From: a virus
Taxonomy: Duplodnaviria > Heunggongvirae > Uroviricota > Caudoviricetes
IMG/VR virus record: IMGVR_UViG_3300013021_000001
DNA: 64,000 nucleotides
Reading direction: 5' to 3' (one strand)
Below are positions 24,732-29,986 of this stretch, piece after piece. How positions within the stretch are numbered: the first letter of the stretch is position 1; each line of letters begins with the position of its first letter. The position numbers were made by a program, and so were the translations under genes. The notes below the pieces were generated by a model that was not told the DNA's origin, ran no database searches, and saw only the letters and a program-made list of their open reading frames with translations.

Positions 24732-27700
24732 ATGTCGTTTTATGTAATTAAAAGAGACGGAAGAAAAGTAGAATATAAAAATAAAAAAATTAAAGATGCA
24801 GTTTATAAAGCAGCGAAGGCAACAGCAGAAAAAAAAGGTGAAGATTTTTGGAATTTTGTTGCAAATAATATTGTTGAAGAAATAGAAGATAATATAAGTG
24901 GAATGATTAGTTCTGGATTAAACTCTGTTAATGTTGAGACTTTACAGGATATTGTTGAGTATGAATTAATGGAAAACAGACATTATGAAATAGCAAAAAA
25001 CTATATATTATATAGAAAGCAGCATGAAAAGTATAGAGATGCTCAAAAACTATACAATGGAATAAATGATACAGTTAATAATTACCTTGATTTAAGCAAT
25101 TGGAAAGTTAATGAGAACTCCAATATGGGTTATAGTCTTCAGGGTTTAAATAATCATATAGCAAGCGAGGTGACAGGCCATTATTGGTTAAATGAAATTT
25201 ACCCTAAACACATTAAAGAAAAGCATGTAAGTGGAGATTTGCACATTCACGACCTTGCTAATTTAAGTAATTACTGTTGTGGATGGGACCTTCAGGATTT
25301 ATTATTGGAAGGTTTTTCAGGAGTGTCAACCAAGATAGAGTCGGCACCACCAAAACACTTCAGAACTGCTTTAGGACAAATGGTTAATTTTTTATATACT
25401 TTACAGGGAGAGAGTTCTGGAGCTCAAGCTTTTTCAAGTTTCGATACTTATCTTGCACCGTTTGTATCTTATGATGGACTTGATTATGATGAAGTTTATC
25501 AGGCTATGCAGGAATTTATTTTTAATTTAAATGTACCGACACGGGTTGGATTTCAAAGTCCTTTTACAAATTTAACTATGGATTTAGTTTGTCCATCAAA
25601 TATGGCAGAGGACCCAGCTATTATTGGTGGCGAAATGCTTTATGACATGCCGCTTAAAAATTTCCAGAAGGAAATGGACATGATTAACAAGGCTTTTGCT
25701 GAGGTTATGCTGGCGGGAGATTCAAAAGGAAGAGTATTTTCTTTCCCTATTCCTACTTATAACATTACTCCAGATTTTGATTGGGATAACGAAATATTAA
25801 ATCCTGTTTGGGAAATGACAGCCAAGTACGGAATTCCATATTTTGCGAACTTCGTCAATTCCGATATGAAAGCTGAAGACGCTCGCTCAATGTGTCCACT
25901 TGACGGAAAAGAAAAGGTATTAGTTAAAACAGGTGATGACAATGTAAGATACTCCCAAATTAACCACACATATTATGACACTAAAGATAATGATGATATA
26001 TTAGTCTATTCTGATGGTAAATTTATAGAAGGTCGATTCAATAAGTTTGAAAATCAAAATATGATAAATGTAAGATTGGTTAACGGGCATGAGATAAAGA
26101 TGACTGAAGAACATTTAAATTTTGTTATCAAAAATAAAAATAAAGATATTGAAGAAATGTCAGGAAAAGACTTAAAAGAAGGTTATTATCTACCTTATAG
26201 CTTAACAAGTTTTAAAGGCGAAGGAGGAACTTATGACCTTGGCTATTTAATAGGAGCTTTTGCAGGAGACGGAAGCTGTGATAAAAATACAGGAACTGTT
26301 TTTTCTTTAAATAATAATACCAAGCTAACAGTGCTTGAAAATTTAAAAGAAATACTGACTAAACTTTTTGGGGCTAAATTTACCGAAAAAGAAGAAAAAA
26401 ATAATGTAGTTAAACTTTCAACATATAATCCAGCAGTAAAATCAATGATTGAAAGTTTTGTTGATGGGGATAATGCATTAAATAAATACTTCAAAGCAAA
26501 TGTTTTTGAAATGAGCAAACACTTTAGAACAGGATTATTTGATGGCTATTATGAAACTGATGGAGGAAACAAAAATAGAATTTATACATCATCAGAAAAA
26601 ATGGTAGAAAGCTTAAATATGTTAGCTGCTACTCTGGGAACAACAACCAATGTTTATACTGATGACAGAAAAAAAAGTGATGGAAGACTAGGAGATAATC
26701 CAAATTATGCTGTTTTATTTTACAAATTAAATAGAAATAGTTATGGCGACGTTTGGTTTAAAAAAGACTCAAAACTGTGGATGAAAATAGATAAAGTTGA
26801 AAAACTAAAAGAAAAACAAACGGCTTATTGTTTTGAAGTCAAAGATGGAGAACCAATGTTTACGGTTGGCACAACTGGAATCTTGACTCATAACTGCAGG
26901 CTGCGCCTTGATAATCGGCAATTAAGAAAGCGAGGAGGAGGTTTATTCGGCTCATCGCCTATGACAGGCTCTATCGGTGTAGTAACACTTAATATGCCCA
27001 GAATTGGACTTTTAGCAGAAAATACTGATGATTATTTAGAGAGAGTCTATGAATTAATGGATATTGCAAAAGAAAGTTTAGAAATTAAAAGAAGAATTTT
27101 AGAAGAGTTAACAGATGCAGGTCTTTACCCTTATTCTAAGTTTTATCTAAGAAGTATTAAGGAACGTTTTGGAGAGTACTGGAAAAATCACTTTAATACA
27201 ATCGGATTAAATGGAATGAATGAATCTGTTATGAATTTCTTAGGAAAAGATATGACAGAACATGAAGCTATTAAATTTACTAAATGGGTTATGTACAAAA
27301 TGAAAGAAAGAATGGTGGAGTACCAGGAAGAAACAAGTGACCTTTTTAACCTTGAAGCTACTCCAGCTGAAGGAACAAGCTATAGATTGGCCAAATCAGA
27401 CCTTGATAAGTTTGGGAAAGAAGAAGCTGTTTTTGCTAATGATAAAAGGGTTTATACAGAAGATGCTGACCCGTATTACACTAATTCAACTCAGCTACCT
27501 GTAGGGGCTACAGACGACCCTTTTGAAGCTTTAGATTGGCAGGATGAACTTCAGAAAAATTATACAGGAGGAACAGTTTTACATTTATTTCTAGGAGAGA
27601 GAATGCCTGGAATAGAGGCTACCAAAAAGTTTGTTAAAAGAGTTGCTGAAAATTATGAACTTCCTTATTACTCTATTACTCCTACTTTTAGTATTTGTCC

Positions 27701-27773
27701 AATACATGGGTATCTGCCAGGAGAACACGAATTCTGTCCTAAGTGTGATGCTGAAAACGGATATGAGGGTTAG
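24732..27773 (+). CDS. nrdD: Anaerobic ribonucleoside-triphosphate reductase NrdD (class III), with intein; lacks the glycyl-radical C-terminus
   Basis: N-terminal ATP-cone VIKRDGRKVEY. Active-site region SM|C…N|CRLRLD split by a 334-aa insertion. C-terminal zinc site CPIHG…CPKC; the ORF then ends with tandem stops without an RVxG[YF]…NxGK region. Confidence 0.85.
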   Translation: MSFYVIKRDGRKVEYKNKKIKDAVYKAAKATAEKKGEDFWNFVANNIVEEIEDNISGMISSGLNSVNVETLQDIVEYELMENRHYEIAKNYILYRKQHEKYRDAQKLYNGINDTVNNYLDLSNWKVNENSNMGYSLQGLNNHIASEVTGHYWLNEIYPKHIKEKHVSGDLHIHDLANLSNYCCGWDLQDLLLEGFSGVSTKIESAPPKHFRTALGQMVNFLYTLQGESSGAQAFSSFDTYLAPFVSYDGLDYDEVYQAMQEFIFNLNVPTRVGFQSPFTNLTMDLVCPSNMAEDPAIIGGEMLYDMPLKNFQKEMDMINKAFAEVMLAGDSKGRVFSFPIPTYNITPDFDWDNEILNPVWEMTAKYGIPYFANFVNSDMKAEDARSMCPLDGKEKVLVKTGDDNVRYSQINHTYYDTKDNDDILVYSDGKFIEGRFNKFENQNMINVRLVNGHEIKMTEEHLNFVIKNKNKDIEEMSGKDLKEGYYLPYSLTSFKGEGGTYDLGYLIGAFAGDGSCDKNTGTVFSLNNNTKLTVLENLKEILTKLFGAKFTEKEEKNNVVKLSTYNPAVKSMIESFVDGDNALNKYFKANVFEMSKHFRTGLFDGYYETDGGNKNRIYTSSEKMVESLNMLAATLGTTTNVYTDDRKKSDGRLGDNPNYAVLFYKLNRNSYGDVWFKKDSKLWMKIDKVEKLKEKQTAYCFEVKDGEPMFTVGTTGILTHNCRLRLDNRQLRKRGGGLFGSSPMTGSIGVVTLNMPRIGLLAENTDDYLERVYELMDIAKESLEIKRRILEELTDAGLYPYSKFYLRSIKERFGEYWKNHFNTIGLNGMNESVMNFLGKDMTEHEAIKFTKWVMYKMKERMVEYQEETSDLFNLEATPAEGTSYRLAKSDLDKFGKEEAVFANDKRVYTEDADPYYTNSTQLPVGATDDPFEALDWQDELQKNYTGGTVLHLFLGERMPGIEATKKFVKRVAENYELPYYSITPTFSICPIHGYLPGEHEFCPKCDAENGYEG
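25893..26894 (+). mobile_element. Intein in NrdD with LAGLIDADG homing-endonuclease domain (334 aa)
   Basis: Begins CPLDG and ends ILTHN followed by C. Two LAGLIDADG motifs (LGYLIGAFAGDGS and FRTGLFDGYYETDGG). Confidence 0.8.
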
Positions 27774-27776
27774 TAA

Positions 27777-28196
27777 ATGTATATTTTAAAATATTTACTT
27801 TATGTTTTAGAACACAAATGGAATGTTTTTAAAATTGCAATGGGTAAGGGTATGTTCGTTCATGCTTTTACCCATGATTTATCTAAATTAACTGGTAGCG
27901 AATTTTGGGCTTATGCAGGATATTTTTATAAAGATAAAGAAAAATACAAGCACCGATTTGAGATGGCATGGAGACACCACTATTATAATAATCCTCACCA
28001 TTGGAATCACTGGATAGGCCCACAGGGAAAACCTATGGAGATACCACTAAAATATATTCAACAAATGGTAGTTGACTGGGAGGCTATGAGTTTGAAATTT
28101 GGTGACACAGCCAAAGAGTATTACTTAAATAATAAAGAAAAAATTAAATTAACCGATAAGACAAGAACTATTTTAGAAAATGAATTAGAAATTTAA
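27777..28196 (+). CDS. Hypothetical His/Trp-rich protein
   Basis: 139-aa ORF immediately after the nrdD stops. Confidence 0.35.
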   Translation: MYILKYLLYVLEHKWNVFKIAMGKGMFVHAFTHDLSKLTGSEFWAYAGYFYKDKEKYKHRFEMAWRHHYYNNPHHWNHWIGPQGKPMEIPLKYIQQMVVDWEAMSLKFGDTAKEYYLNNKEKIKLTDKTRTILENELEI

Positions 28197-28207
28197 GGGG
28201 GTTAAAT

Positions 28208-29519: not shown

Positions 29520-29537
29520 AGAAAGGAGGTGGTAATT

Positions 29538-29666
29538 ATGGAAAGCAAAAGAACTAGATGTGAAATTTATTCCAGAGTTGTTGGGTTTTTAACACCTATC
29601 TCTCATTGGAATAAAGGAAAAAAAGAAGAGTGGAAAGACAGAAAAACATTTGATAAAGTACTGTAA
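29538..29666 (+). CDS. Stand-alone 42-aa ORF encoding the NrdD glycyl-radical motif region
   Basis: ATG 29538 after AAAGGAGGTGGTAATT. YSRVVGFLTPISHWNKGKKEEWKDRKTF matches the class III RNR Gly-radical region RVCGYLG…N.GK.EE.K.R. Confidence 0.55.
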   Translation: MESKRTRCEIYSRVVGFLTPISHWNKGKKEEWKDRKTFDKVL

Positions 29667-29692
29667 ATATCTCTTAAAGGGGGAGGTATTAA

Positions 29693-29986
29693 TTGAAGTG
29701 GTTTGTAATTACAGCTAAGAAAAAATTTAAATATGAAAAAGAAAAGTTTACAAGCAAAAAAGAGGCAGAAAAATATTACAAAAAACAAAAAAAGAAGTAC
29801 AAAAAAGTAACACTTTACAAACACAAGGATTTCAAAAAACCAGACAGAAGAATAATTTATACATGGTGTCCTATATGTGGCAAAAATAGAAAATTTAAAA
29901 CTCATCCAGAAAAGAAAGTAAAGGTTTGCCCTTATTGTGGTATAAGCGAAGATTTTTATTACGTAAAAAAATATAATTGGTTATAA
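29693..29986 (+). CDS. Basic protein with C-terminal zinc ribbon
   Basis: TTG start after AAAGGGGGAGG. Lys-rich. CPICGK…CPYCG. Confidence 0.4.
   Translation: MKWFVITAKKKFKYEKEKFTSKKEAEKYYKKQKKKYKKVTLYKHKDFKKPDRRIIYTWCPICGKNRKFKTHPEKKVKVCPYCGISEDFYYVKKYNWL

What the first reader, a model, noticed from the sequence alone, without database searches (positions are those of the whole stretch)
27700..29700. nrdD is split: glycyl-radical C-terminus encoded as a separate 42-codon ORF 1.76 kb downstream, with nrdG in between
The main nrdD ORF (24732-27773) has the ATP-cone, catalytic Cys region and Zn-ribbon (CPIHG…CPKC). It then stops at tandem TAG TAA only 8 residues after the last Cys and lacks the canonical RVxG[YF]…NxGKxxE…R glycyl-radical region. 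That region (YSRVVGFLTPISHWNKGKKEEWKDRKTF) sits in a 42-codon ORF with a strong RBS at 29538-29666. It is separated from nrdD by three co-directional genes: orf139, a Gmk-like kinase, and nrdG, the activase that must act on this very glycine. Possible readings are a functional two-piece glycyl-radical enzyme, comparable to known split RNRs or GrcA-type glycyl-radical spare-part proteins. Alternatively it is the scar of a cassette insertion or recombination that brought in a foreign nrdD 3' end (the main ORF ends in a degenerate NGYEG).
Basis: partly seen in the sequence, partly recalled or inferred. Interest (0 to 1): 0.85.

Follow-up and report, generated by a model that had tools for sequence, protein, structure and literature searches.

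The report
Two-piece anaerobic ribonucleotide reductase, detachable radical peptide
This phage-like genome encodes an anaerobic ribonucleotide reductase whose radical-carrying tail is a separate 42-residue peptide made right after its activating enzyme, and the same split design is conserved in many bacteria, archaea and phages without appearing in any paper I could search.

Summary
The nrdD ORF (24732-27773) has the ATP-cone, an intein, the catalytic barrel and a complete Zn ribbon. It stops 8 residues after CPKC. The missing glycyl-radical loop (SRVVGF...) lies in a 42-codon ORF (29538-29666) with its own GGAGG ribosome-binding site, 18 nt after nrdG.

This is not a scar. The same split occurs in Synergistota and Halanaerobiales (body-nrdG-peptide) and in DPANN archaea and CPR bacteria (body-peptide-nrdG). 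Their closest fused relatives join the two parts with about 3 residues.

Across 49 copies of the peptide gene, synonymous sites are saturated (pS 0.91) and pN is 0.16. Nearly all copies have their own start codon and ribosome-binding site. The best 150 of 4653 profile hits are all stand-alone proteins of 48-149 aa.

Body tails are acidic and peptide leaders are basic, which suggests docking. Prophages and viral contigs often carry the peptide gene alone.

No intron signal was found, and there is no room for a split intein. I found no description of this architecture in the literature. GrcA/YfiD for pyruvate formate-lyase is the nearest analogue.

Most likely this is a functional two-piece glycyl-radical enzyme. 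All evidence is comparative, and no biochemistry exists.

The parts
24732..27773 (+). nrdD 'body' ORF (1013 aa): ATP-cone, barrel halves, intein and Zn ribbon, with no glycyl-radical loop
   Evidence: Pfam NRDD E 2.8e-174, ATP-cone E 2.8e-20, NCBIfam NF006126 972 bits (cut-off 548). Aligns to Tm NrdD only up to residue 609.
25893..26894 (+). In-frame intein (334 aa, LAGLIDADG-type) inserted at the SMCCRL finger-loop motif: ARSM|CPLDG...THN|CRLRL
   Evidence: Pfam Intein_splicing and LAGLIDADG_3, TIGR01443, boundaries. A 51%-identical intein sits at the same site in a Dojkabacteria NrdD (L067).
27696..27746 (+). Zn-ribbon ligand motif CPIH-x9-CPKC, complete within the body
   Evidence: Sequence. 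Tm NrdD binds Zn through CxxxHx6CxxC, placed between the last barrel strand and the Gly loop (PMC4493059).
27747..27776 (+). Acidic 8-residue body tail DAENGYEG followed by tandem stops TAG TAA. This is the site of the split.
   Evidence: The tail motif CDAExGY plus acidic residues is conserved in split-type bodies: mean net charge -3.6, negative in 98%.
27777..28196 (+). DUF5662 protein (139 aa), a lineage-specific insertion between nrdD and nrdG
   Evidence: Pfam PF18907 E 5.7e-30, phrog_20637 of unknown function. Absent from the 28 cellular loci with nrdG in the middle.
28208..28810 (+). Guanylate-kinase-like nucleotide kinase (200 aa), a lineage-specific insertion. It overlaps the nrdG start by 8 nt.
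   Evidence: Pfam PF00625 E 2.4e-18. TIGR03263 81 bits, below its cut-off of 160.
28803..29519 (+). nrdG, the radical-SAM activase (238 aa, CNLRCPYC cluster motif)
   Evidence: TIGR02495 NrdG2 189.8 bits against cut-off 131, Pfam Radical_SAM and Fer4_12.
29525..29529 (+). Shine-Dalgarno GGAGG, 8 nt upstream of the peptide ATG
   Evidence: An equivalent ribosome-binding site is present in nearly all homologous peptide genes.
29538..29666 (+). 42-codon glycyl-radical peptide gene (MESKRTRCEIYSRVVGFLTPISHWNKGKKEEWKDRKTFDKVL). The predicted radical glycine is Gly16, codon 29583-29585.
   Evidence: Pfam NRDD positions 531-562 of 562, E 6.2e-9. Family profile aligns to Tm NrdD 611-647 including Gly621. 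SRVVGF, WN and GK are invariant in 41 homologues. pN/pS 0.18.

Best explanation
This is a naturally split class III (anaerobic) ribonucleotide reductase.

The large polypeptide, after intein splicing, supplies the ATP-cone, the ten-stranded barrel with the catalytic finger-loop cysteine, and the complete Zn ribbon. It ends just where the glycyl-radical loop would begin. That loop is made as an independent 42-residue peptide, translated from its own ribosome-binding site 18 nt after nrdG.

The inferred mechanism is as follows. NrdG abstracts the C-alpha hydrogen of Gly16 in SRVVGF. The peptide inserts into the barrel of the body, as the covalently attached C-terminal loop does in Thermotoga and T4 NrdD. 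It is held there partly by its basic leader (KRTR) pairing with the acidic body tail (DAENGYEG). The radical is then relayed to the finger-loop cysteine and the substrate.

Because the radical module is detachable, an oxygen-cleaved or spent peptide could be replaced without remaking the body of about 78 kDa. Its supply could also be tuned independently.

What is shown: separate translation units, complementarity to solved structures, conservation, purifying selection, and charge complementarity. What is inferred: activation of the free peptide, docking, catalysis, and the replacement advantage.

The phage most likely took the already split operon from a Halanaerobiales- or Synergistota-like host and later inserted two nucleotide-metabolism genes between nrdD and nrdG.
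For: 1. Exact complementarity. The body aligns to Tm NrdD 350-609, ending at CPVCG. The peptide profile aligns to 611-647 of 651. The published Tm structure puts the Zn ribbon between the last barrel strand and the Gly loop, so the break falls at a domain boundary.

2. Conservation of the architecture. Of 46 homologues of the peptide found in a 5.8-billion-protein collection, all are 39-77 aa stand-alone proteins. A profile search of 1.84 billion representatives gave 4653 hits, and the best 150 are all 48-149 aa.

3. Cellular genomes carry it, including several chromosome-scale records and contigs. Aminobacterium colombiense has nrdD (678 aa), nrdG (229 aa) and a peptide (51 aa). Twenty-eight loci from Synergistota and Halanaerobiales have the peptide start 12-127 nt (median 33.5) after the nrdG stop. 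Thirteen loci from DPANN archaea, CPR bacteria and one Halanaerobiales genome have body-peptide-nrdG.

4. The closest fused relatives (55-57% identical) read CPxC-(~3 aa)-CE[IV]YSRVVGF in one frame.

5. Selection. Over 49 peptide genes, pS is 0.91 (saturated) and pN is 0.16. Nearly all have their own GGAGG-type ribosome-binding site and ATG.

6. Split-specific adaptations. Body tails average 14.5 aa with net charge -3.6 (98% negative). The four residues before the conserved Cys of the peptide average +2.3 (98% positive).

7. Trans-action is implied by orphan peptide genes in prophages of Synergistaceae whose chromosomes carry a complete split operon (L031 between TerS and TerL; L019, L013). 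It is also implied by about 41 of 45 IMG/VR loci that have no nrdD or nrdG within 6 kb.

8. The window's gene cluster is compact, with overlapping or closely abutting genes and no terminator-like site between nrdD and the peptide.

9. The arrangement is identical on 12 independent contigs.
Against: - There is no biochemical, transcript or proteomic evidence for this or any member. All support is comparative.
- A glycyl radical on a free 42-aa peptide would be unprotected, so the order of events (dock first or activate first) is unknown.
- Only 64 kb of a 203.6-kb contig is visible. A second, fused nrdD elsewhere in the phage or in the hosts cannot be excluded.
- Canonical splicing of the intein would give SMCRLRL. 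Intein-free homologues have SMCCRLRL, so the mature body is one Cys shorter next to the catalytic Cys, with unknown effect.
- My NJ tree does not recover all split forms as one clade (9 of 100 bootstraps; fused L080 is nested inside). The number of origins is therefore unresolved.
- No structural model of the two-chain complex could be made with the tools allowed.
Confidence: 0.8

Rival explanations
1. The peptide is a GrcA/YfiD-type spare part only. It would rescue a different, full-length NrdD (host or phage) after oxygen cleavage, and the GRD-less body encoded here would not depend on it, or would be inactive.
For: Phages and prophages often carry the peptide gene alone. This parallels T4 Y06I and E. 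coli YfiD, which rescue oxygen-cleaved PFL (PMC8683613). A second nrdD outside the window cannot be excluded.
Against: In the window and in more than 40 cellular loci, the adjacent NrdD body itself lacks any glycyl-radical loop and ends at the same position. The peptide is therefore the only visible source of the radical for that body. Body tails and peptide leaders show complementary charges specific to split forms. Body, nrdG and peptide are syntenic across phyla.
Confidence: 0.1
2. The arrangement is a non-functional scar. A cassette (DUF5662, kinase, nrdG) was inserted into nrdD, or a recombination left a decaying 3' remnant, so the mini-ORF is not expressed.
For: DUF5662 and the kinase are indeed lineage-specific insertions between nrdD and nrdG. 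Deposited phage relatives (phiCTP1, Oceanotoga phage, MT835493) have fused nrdD genes, and the first two have nrdG directly downstream.
Against: The split predates the phage. The same break point and the order body-nrdG-peptide occur in a clade of cellular genomes to which the window's NrdD belongs, sister to Orenia. The peptide gene has pN/pS 0.18 with saturated synonymous sites, invariant SRVVGF, WN and GK residues and its own ribosome-binding site. The sequence is 100% conserved on 12 contigs.
Confidence: 0.03
3. The two parts are rejoined after transcription or translation, by an unusual intron, trans-splicing, a split intein or ribosomal bypass, giving a normal single-chain NrdD.
For: RNR genes are hot spots for introns and inteins (PMC3653736), and this very gene carries an intein. 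In the body-peptide-nrdG loci the two ORFs abut or overlap, so recoding cannot be formally excluded for those.
Against: The 1.76-kb interval is filled by three intact, conserved protein genes. Rfam found nothing in 27500-29900 even at E<=1, and nothing above gathering score in the whole window. The body tail (8 aa) and peptide leader (7 aa) are far too short for split-intein halves. The peptide has its own ribosome-binding site and ATG in nearly all lineages.
Confidence: 0.03

Closest known systems
Canonical single-chain class III RNR NrdD with activase NrdG (T4, E. coli, Thermotoga maritima; PDB 1HK8, 4COI)
   Same: It has the ATP-cone, the barrel, the finger-loop Cys motif, the Zn ribbon (CxxH...CxxC as in Tm), the RVxG[FY] glycyl loop sequence and an NrdG2-type activase. 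The window's exteins are 55-57% identical to fused NrdDs of Melainabacteria and Saccharibacteria.
   Different: The glycyl-radical loop is not part of the NrdD polypeptide. It is a separate 42-aa gene product encoded after nrdG. The body has gained an acidic tail and the peptide a basic leader.
GrcA/YfiD of E. coli and Y06I of phage T4: autonomous glycyl-radical cofactors ('spare parts') for pyruvate formate-lyase
   Same: Each is a small stand-alone protein carrying the glycyl-radical loop. It is activated by the cognate radical-SAM activase and docks into a large body that lacks a working loop. Phage-encoded versions exist (PMC8683613). Orphan phage copies of the NrdD peptide mirror Y06I.
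   Different: GrcA is about 14 kDa (127 aa, N-terminal half disordered) and belongs to Pfam Gly_radical (my knowledge). It backs up a PFL that has its own loop and acts only after oxygen cleavage. Here the peptide is 42 aa, matches only the NRDD family, serves an RNR, and is the only loop the adjacent body has.
Genes-in-pieces RNRs of phages (Aeh1 nrdA split by a homing endonuclease gene; phiYS40 nrdJa/nrdJb; intron- or intein-interrupted nrdD)
   Same: An RNR catalytic subunit is encoded in two ORFs that must assemble. RNR genes are frequent targets of mobile insertions (PMC3653736). This nrdD also carries an intein.
   Different: Those splits are sporadic and lineage-restricted, are caused by mobile elements, and cut the barrel into large fragments. 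This split is at the Zn-ribbon/Gly-loop boundary, releases only the radical module, has the activase gene rather than a homing endonuclease between the pieces, and is conserved across bacterial and archaeal phyla.

Membership tests
Class III ribonucleotide reductase (NrdD) | Catalytic barrel with finger-loop Cys, recognised by curated NrdD models | tested here: met
   NF006126 972 bits (cut-off 548), TIGR02487 491.7 bits (cut-off 326), Pfam NRDD E 2.8e-174. The CRLRL motif follows the intein.
Class III ribonucleotide reductase (NrdD) | Zn-ribbon domain before the glycyl loop | tested here: met
   CPIH-x9-CPKC at 27696-27746. It corresponds to the CxxxHx6CxxC Zn site of Tm NrdD.
Class III ribonucleotide reductase (NrdD) | C-terminal glycyl-radical loop RVxG[FY] within the same polypeptide | tested here: not met
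   The body stops 8 aa after CPKC and aligns to Tm NrdD only to residue 609. The motif is supplied by the separate ORF 29538-29666, which aligns to Tm 611-647.
Class III ribonucleotide reductase (NrdD) | Cognate radical-SAM activase NrdG encoded alongside | tested here: met
   TIGR02495 189.8 bits against cut-off 131, with a CxxxCxxC motif.
Class III ribonucleotide reductase (NrdD) | Glycyl radical formation and NTP reduction | not testable with these tools
   Needs EPR and activity assays.
GrcA/YfiD autonomous glycyl-radical cofactor | Sequence membership in the PFL-type Gly_radical domain family | tested here: not met
   Pfam scan of the 42-aa peptide returns only PF13597 (NRDD) at E<=0.01. 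NCBIfam returns only NrdD models, all far below cut-off.
GrcA/YfiD autonomous glycyl-radical cofactor | Acts as a spare for a partner enzyme that has its own glycyl loop | tested here: not met
   The adjacent body lacks the loop in the window and in all split loci examined. No second NrdD lies in the window. The rest of the genome was not visible.
GrcA/YfiD autonomous glycyl-radical cofactor | Small stand-alone protein bearing the radical glycine, encoded as its own gene | tested here: met
   Own ribosome-binding site, ATG and stop. The family consists of 39-149 aa stand-alone proteins.
Intron-, intein- or recoding-interrupted gene | Self-splicing RNA, or split-intein halves flanking the break | tested here: not met
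   Rfam gave 0 hits at E<=1 in 27500-29900 and 0 at gathering score in the window. The flanks of the break are 8 and 7 residues, and the interval holds three intact genes.

The most novel reading that the evidence does not exclude
The window is one member of a large family of class III ribonucleotide reductases that I could not find described anywhere. In this family the glycyl-radical domain is a free peptide of 40-60 residues, an exchangeable protein-derived radical cofactor made next to its activase. Phages exploit this modularity. Some, like this one, carry the whole split system, and many carry only the peptide gene to plug into the host's reductase body. If true, it would be the first glycyl-radical enzyme whose only radical domain is a separate polypeptide, and the smallest natural substrate of a glycyl-radical activase.
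Probability: 0.6. Interest if true: 0.88.

Novelty: new variant of a known kind. Interest (0 to 1): 0.8.

Why it matters
Glycyl-radical enzymes are described as single polypeptides whose C-terminal radical domain must swing out of the barrel to reach the activase. How that happens is still unresolved (2026 review PMC13450708; Tm NrdD paper).

A natural system in which the radical loop is a free 42-residue peptide gives a minimal, separable substrate for NrdG. It also offers a direct way to study docking, radical transfer and oxygen-damage repair in trans.

It would extend the 'spare part' idea from PFL to DNA-precursor synthesis, and from emergency repair to the normal state of the enzyme.

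It also shows that genome annotation routinely mislabels these NrdD bodies as complete and ignores or misnames the peptide. No dedicated Pfam, NCBIfam or PHROG model exists.

Finally, phages carry a gene of about 130 nt that may control host dNTP supply under anoxia.

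Tried and rejected
- **Intron or ribozyme.** Rfam at gathering score on the whole window, and at E<=1 on 27500-29900, gave nothing.
- **Close phage relatives by DNA.** Megablast of 24700-29700 against 50,697 phage records gave no match. 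A protein-level search found only distant NrdDs. The three I inspected (phiCTP1, Oceanotoga phage, MT835493) are fused, and none shares the window's gene order.
- **Second nrdD or glycyl loop in the window.** None was found.
- **Terminator or promoter evidence for separate transcription.** Consensus hits were at chance level, with no terminator-like site between nrdD and the peptide gene except one inside the DUF5662 ORF that I regard as chance.
- **The peptide's conserved Cys8 as a fourth Zn ligand bridging the chains.** I set this aside. By homology with Tm NrdD all four ligands (C, H, C, C) lie in the body. Most fused relatives also have that Cys, and one (L086) lacks it.
- **Single origin of all split forms.** The NJ tree does not support it (9 of 100), although the clade with nrdG in the middle is recovered (62 of 100).
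- **Structure prediction of the two-chain complex.** Not attempted.
- **Literature.** Five completed full-text searches and targeted reading of eight papers found no description of a split NrdD glycyl-radical domain. Subscription-only papers were not searchable.

Full report
**1. The observation**

- The nrdD ORF spans 24732-27773 (1013 aa). It ends ...CPIHGYLPGEHEFCPKCDAENGYEG, followed by TAG and TAA.
- Three co-directional genes follow: a DUF5662 protein (27777-28196), a guanylate-kinase-like protein (28208-28810) and NrdG (28803-29519). Searches identify them.
- The 42-codon ORF runs 29538-29666. GGAGG lies 8 nt before its ATG, and the ATG lies 18 nt after the nrdG stop.
- Pfam places the 42-aa product on the last 32 positions of the NRDD model (E 6.2e-9).
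- The post-intein half of the body aligns to Thermotoga maritima NrdD (4COI) from residue 350 to 609, ending at CPVCG.
- A profile of the peptide family aligns to residues 611-647 of 651. That stretch contains the radical Gly621 named in the structure paper (PMC4493059).
- That paper also states that the Zn ribbon (CxxxHx6CxxC) sits between the last barrel strand and the C-terminal glycyl loop. The break therefore lies exactly at a domain boundary, and all four Zn ligands (CPIH...CPKC) stay with the body.
- No other NrdD-like or glycyl-loop segment occurs in the window.
- The same arrangement is found on 12 contigs from independent assemblies. The longest is 203.6 kb.
- The window carries a phage-type replication module: helicase, primase, DnaB, RecJ-like exonuclease and PolIII alpha. 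It is therefore probably a large phage. No structural genes were examined.

**2. It is not an isolated accident**

Searching the peptide against 5.8 billion proteins returned 46 clusters. All are 39-77 aa stand-alone proteins carrying only the NRDD Pfam signature. Members come from Aminobacterium colombiense, Iocasia frigidifontis and Halanaerobiaceae.

In A. colombiense the context is nrdD (678 aa), nrdG (229 aa) and the peptide (51 aa), tightly packed.

A scan of one genome per species (185,579 species) gave 266 relatives. I classified the best 80 by tblastn. Three architectures appear.

- **Fused.** nrdD is followed by nrdG in Melainabacteria, many Saccharibacteria and Patescibacteria, and some archaea. 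They read CPxC-(about 3 residues)-CE[IV]YSRVVGF... in one frame.
- **nrdG in the middle.** Body, nrdG, then peptide, in Synergistota and Halanaerobiales. In 28 loci the peptide start lies 12-127 nt (median 33.5) after the nrdG stop.
- **Adjacent.** Body, peptide, then nrdG. The peptide gene abuts or overlaps the end of the body gene, in a different frame in all but one locus. This form occurs in Woesearchaeota and other DPANN archaea, some Saccharibacteria and Dojkabacteria, and one Halanaerobiales genome.

A profile search of 1.84 billion representatives found 4653 hits (1533 at E<=1e-10). The best 150 are all 48-149 aa.

The window has nrdG in the middle, plus two extra genes (DUF5662 and the kinase) between body and nrdG. 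These genes are absent from every cellular locus examined.

In an NJ tree of the bodies, the loci with nrdG in the middle form a clade (62 of 100 bootstraps). The window is sister to Orenia (Halanaerobiales), and the adjacent-type Halanaerobiales locus is sister to that whole clade. Split forms as a whole are not recovered as one clade (9 of 100).

The simplest history runs from fused, to split in place, to nrdG between the pieces, to capture by the phage with two further genes inserted. This history is an inference.

**3. The peptide gene is a real, selected gene**

- In 41 aligned homologues, SRVVGF, WN and GK are invariant. The consensus is KRTKCEIYSRVVGFLTPVSQWNxGKKEEFKDRKTYD.
- Over 49 DNA copies, synonymous sites are saturated (pS 0.91), while pN is 0.16 (ratio 0.18).
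- Nearly every copy has a GGAGG-like ribosome-binding site and an ATG of its own. The exceptions are CPR bacteria and two prophage orphan copies, L013 and L038.
- Split forms share features that fused forms lack. The body continues past CPxC for a mean of 14.5 residues that are acidic (net -3.6, negative in 98%), often as CDAExGY-acidic. The peptide begins with a basic leader (+2.3 over the four residues before the conserved Cys, positive in 98%). The fused linker is about 3 residues.
- The window's 'degenerate NGYEG' is therefore the conserved split-type tail, not a decayed glycyl motif.

**4. Rejoining mechanisms are excluded as far as sequence allows**

- Rfam finds nothing in the window at gathering score, and nothing in 27500-29900 even at E<=1.
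- The 1.76-kb interval is fully occupied by three intact genes.
- The flanks of the break (8 and 7 residues) cannot hold split-intein halves.
- No terminator-like site separates nrdD from the peptide, apart from one chance-level hit inside the DUF5662 ORF. A terminator-like hairpin appears only at 31200-31225.
- The genes overlap or abut: the nrdD stop is followed directly by the DUF5662 ATG, and gmk and nrdG overlap by 8 nt.

**5. How it most likely works**

By homology with solved NrdDs, Gly16 of the peptide is the radical site. NrdG, encoded immediately upstream, is its activase. The peptide must occupy the channel in the barrel that the covalent C-terminal loop occupies in Tm and T4 NrdD. 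This brings the radical next to the finger-loop cysteine (CRLRL).

The complementary charges suggest that the peptide's N-terminus is held beside the body's C-terminus. That is where the two would be joined in fused enzymes.

A plausible advantage is cheap replacement of the oxygen-sensitive module, plus independent dosage control. This parallels YfiD/GrcA and T4 Y06I, which rescue oxygen-cleaved pyruvate formate-lyase (PMC8683613).

The steps after translation are all inferred.

**6. Independent hint of trans-action**

Some Synergistaceae genomes with a complete split operon carry extra, orphan peptide genes inside prophage regions.

- One lies between the small and large terminase genes (L031).
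- Others lie beside phage replication, MazG, integrase and terminase genes (L019, L013).

In IMG/VR, about 41 of 45 loci encoding a relative of the peptide are short stand-alone ORFs. None has a detectable nrdD or nrdG within 6 kb. Only four are C-termini of fused NrdDs. A peptide gene alone makes sense only if the product works with a body and an activase encoded elsewhere.

**7. Comparison with what is known**

- Deposited phage NrdDs closest to the window (phiCTP1, Oceanotoga phage UFV02, MT835493) are fused. In phiCTP1 and the Oceanotoga phage an nrdG-like gene lies directly downstream. In MT835493 the NrdG match lies upstream of nrdD.
- Known split RNRs in phages are sporadic. They are caused by introns, inteins or homing-endonuclease genes (PMC3653736).
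- A 2026 review of glycyl-radical enzymes describes the radical domain as part of the enzyme polypeptide. It lists only YfiD as a spare part (PMC13450708).
- Five completed full-text searches and targeted reading of eight papers found no description of a split NrdD radical domain.
- No Pfam, NCBIfam or PHROG model is dedicated to the peptide.
- I therefore rate it a new variant of a known kind. Subscription-only literature could not be searched.

**8. Caveats**

- The evidence is entirely comparative.
- Only part of the phage genome is visible.
- A second nrdD in the hosts cannot be excluded.
- Canonical intein splicing would yield SMCRLRL instead of the SMCCRLRL of intein-free homologues.
- The number of independent split events is unresolved.

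**Verdict**

The functional two-piece reading is supported (confidence about 0.8), and the scar reading is rejected. Interest is high.

Noticed in passing
L031 5001-5111; L019 5001-5114; L013 3282-3395; IMG/VR loci L089-L133: Orphan glycyl-radical peptide genes sit in prophage or viral contexts. In L031 one lies between TerS and TerL. Others lie next to phage replication, MazG, integrase and GpA-type terminase genes. About 41 of 45 IMG/VR hits are stand-alone, with no nrdD or nrdG within 6 kb. They look like a tiny auxiliary metabolic gene that supplies the radical module to a host NrdD.
   Followed up: partly
window 25893-26894 (intein in nrdD); L067 3070-4062; L035 2702-3247: The LAGLIDADG intein sits in the SMCCRL finger-loop motif as ARSM|C...HN|CRLRL. 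Canonical splicing would leave one Cys fewer (SMCRLRL) than intein-free homologues. A 51%-identical intein occupies the same site in a Dojkabacteria NrdD. A different intein in L035 sits one residue earlier and preserves CC.
   Followed up: partly
window 31245-31784: A second, shorter NrdG-like radical-SAM protein (179 aa, CNLRCADC motif). It scores 70.7 bits on TIGR02495, below the cut-off of 131, and is 33% identical to the window's NrdG over 115 aa. Its substrate is unknown. It is conserved on the sibling contigs.
   Followed up: no
window 30008-31195: A xanthine/uracil permease family transporter (Pfam E 4.8e-65) lies in the same co-directional cluster of a phage-like contig. It is followed by the only good terminator-like hairpin in the region (31200-31225). 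This is an unusual nucleobase-uptake gene for a phage.
   Followed up: no
window 29693-29986: A 97-aa ORF with a strong ribosome-binding site lies directly after the peptide gene. Its N-terminal half is lysine-rich, and it has a C-terminal CPICG...CPYCG zinc-ribbon. It is conserved on all sibling contigs and absent from the cellular split operons. No family was assigned.
   Followed up: no
L105 5524-6129; L110, L114, L129 (IMG/VR): Some viral stand-alone proteins are longer (100-225 aa) and carry several CxxC motifs upstream of the YSRVVGF loop. They may be modules of a Zn ribbon plus a glycyl loop, a larger 'spare part' format.
   Followed up: no
L043, L045, L048-L050, L047, L067, L073-L076, L079, L081: DPANN archaea and CPR bacteria have the split with the peptide gene abutting or overlapping the end of nrdD, in another frame in all but one locus, and nrdG after it. 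Several of their peptides end in Cys-containing tails (...NEC, ...NGC, ...CGCE).
   Followed up: partly
L134 2825-5257 (phage MT835493.1): This phage NrdD is fused (glycyl loop in frame). It carries an extra C-terminal glutaredoxin/NrdH-like extension (...TKTCPNCKMAK...), a possible built-in reductant domain.
   Followed up: no
window 5551-7167: A 538-aa ORF combines thymidylate-synthase PHROG matches (C-terminal part) with HNH-endonuclease matches in the middle. This suggests another mobile-element-interrupted nucleotide-metabolism gene.
   Followed up: no
window 33611-34444: A free-standing ORF with a faint LAGLIDADG match lies just upstream of the PolIII-alpha gene (34682-37711), per the precomputed Pfam marks on L001.
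   Followed up: no
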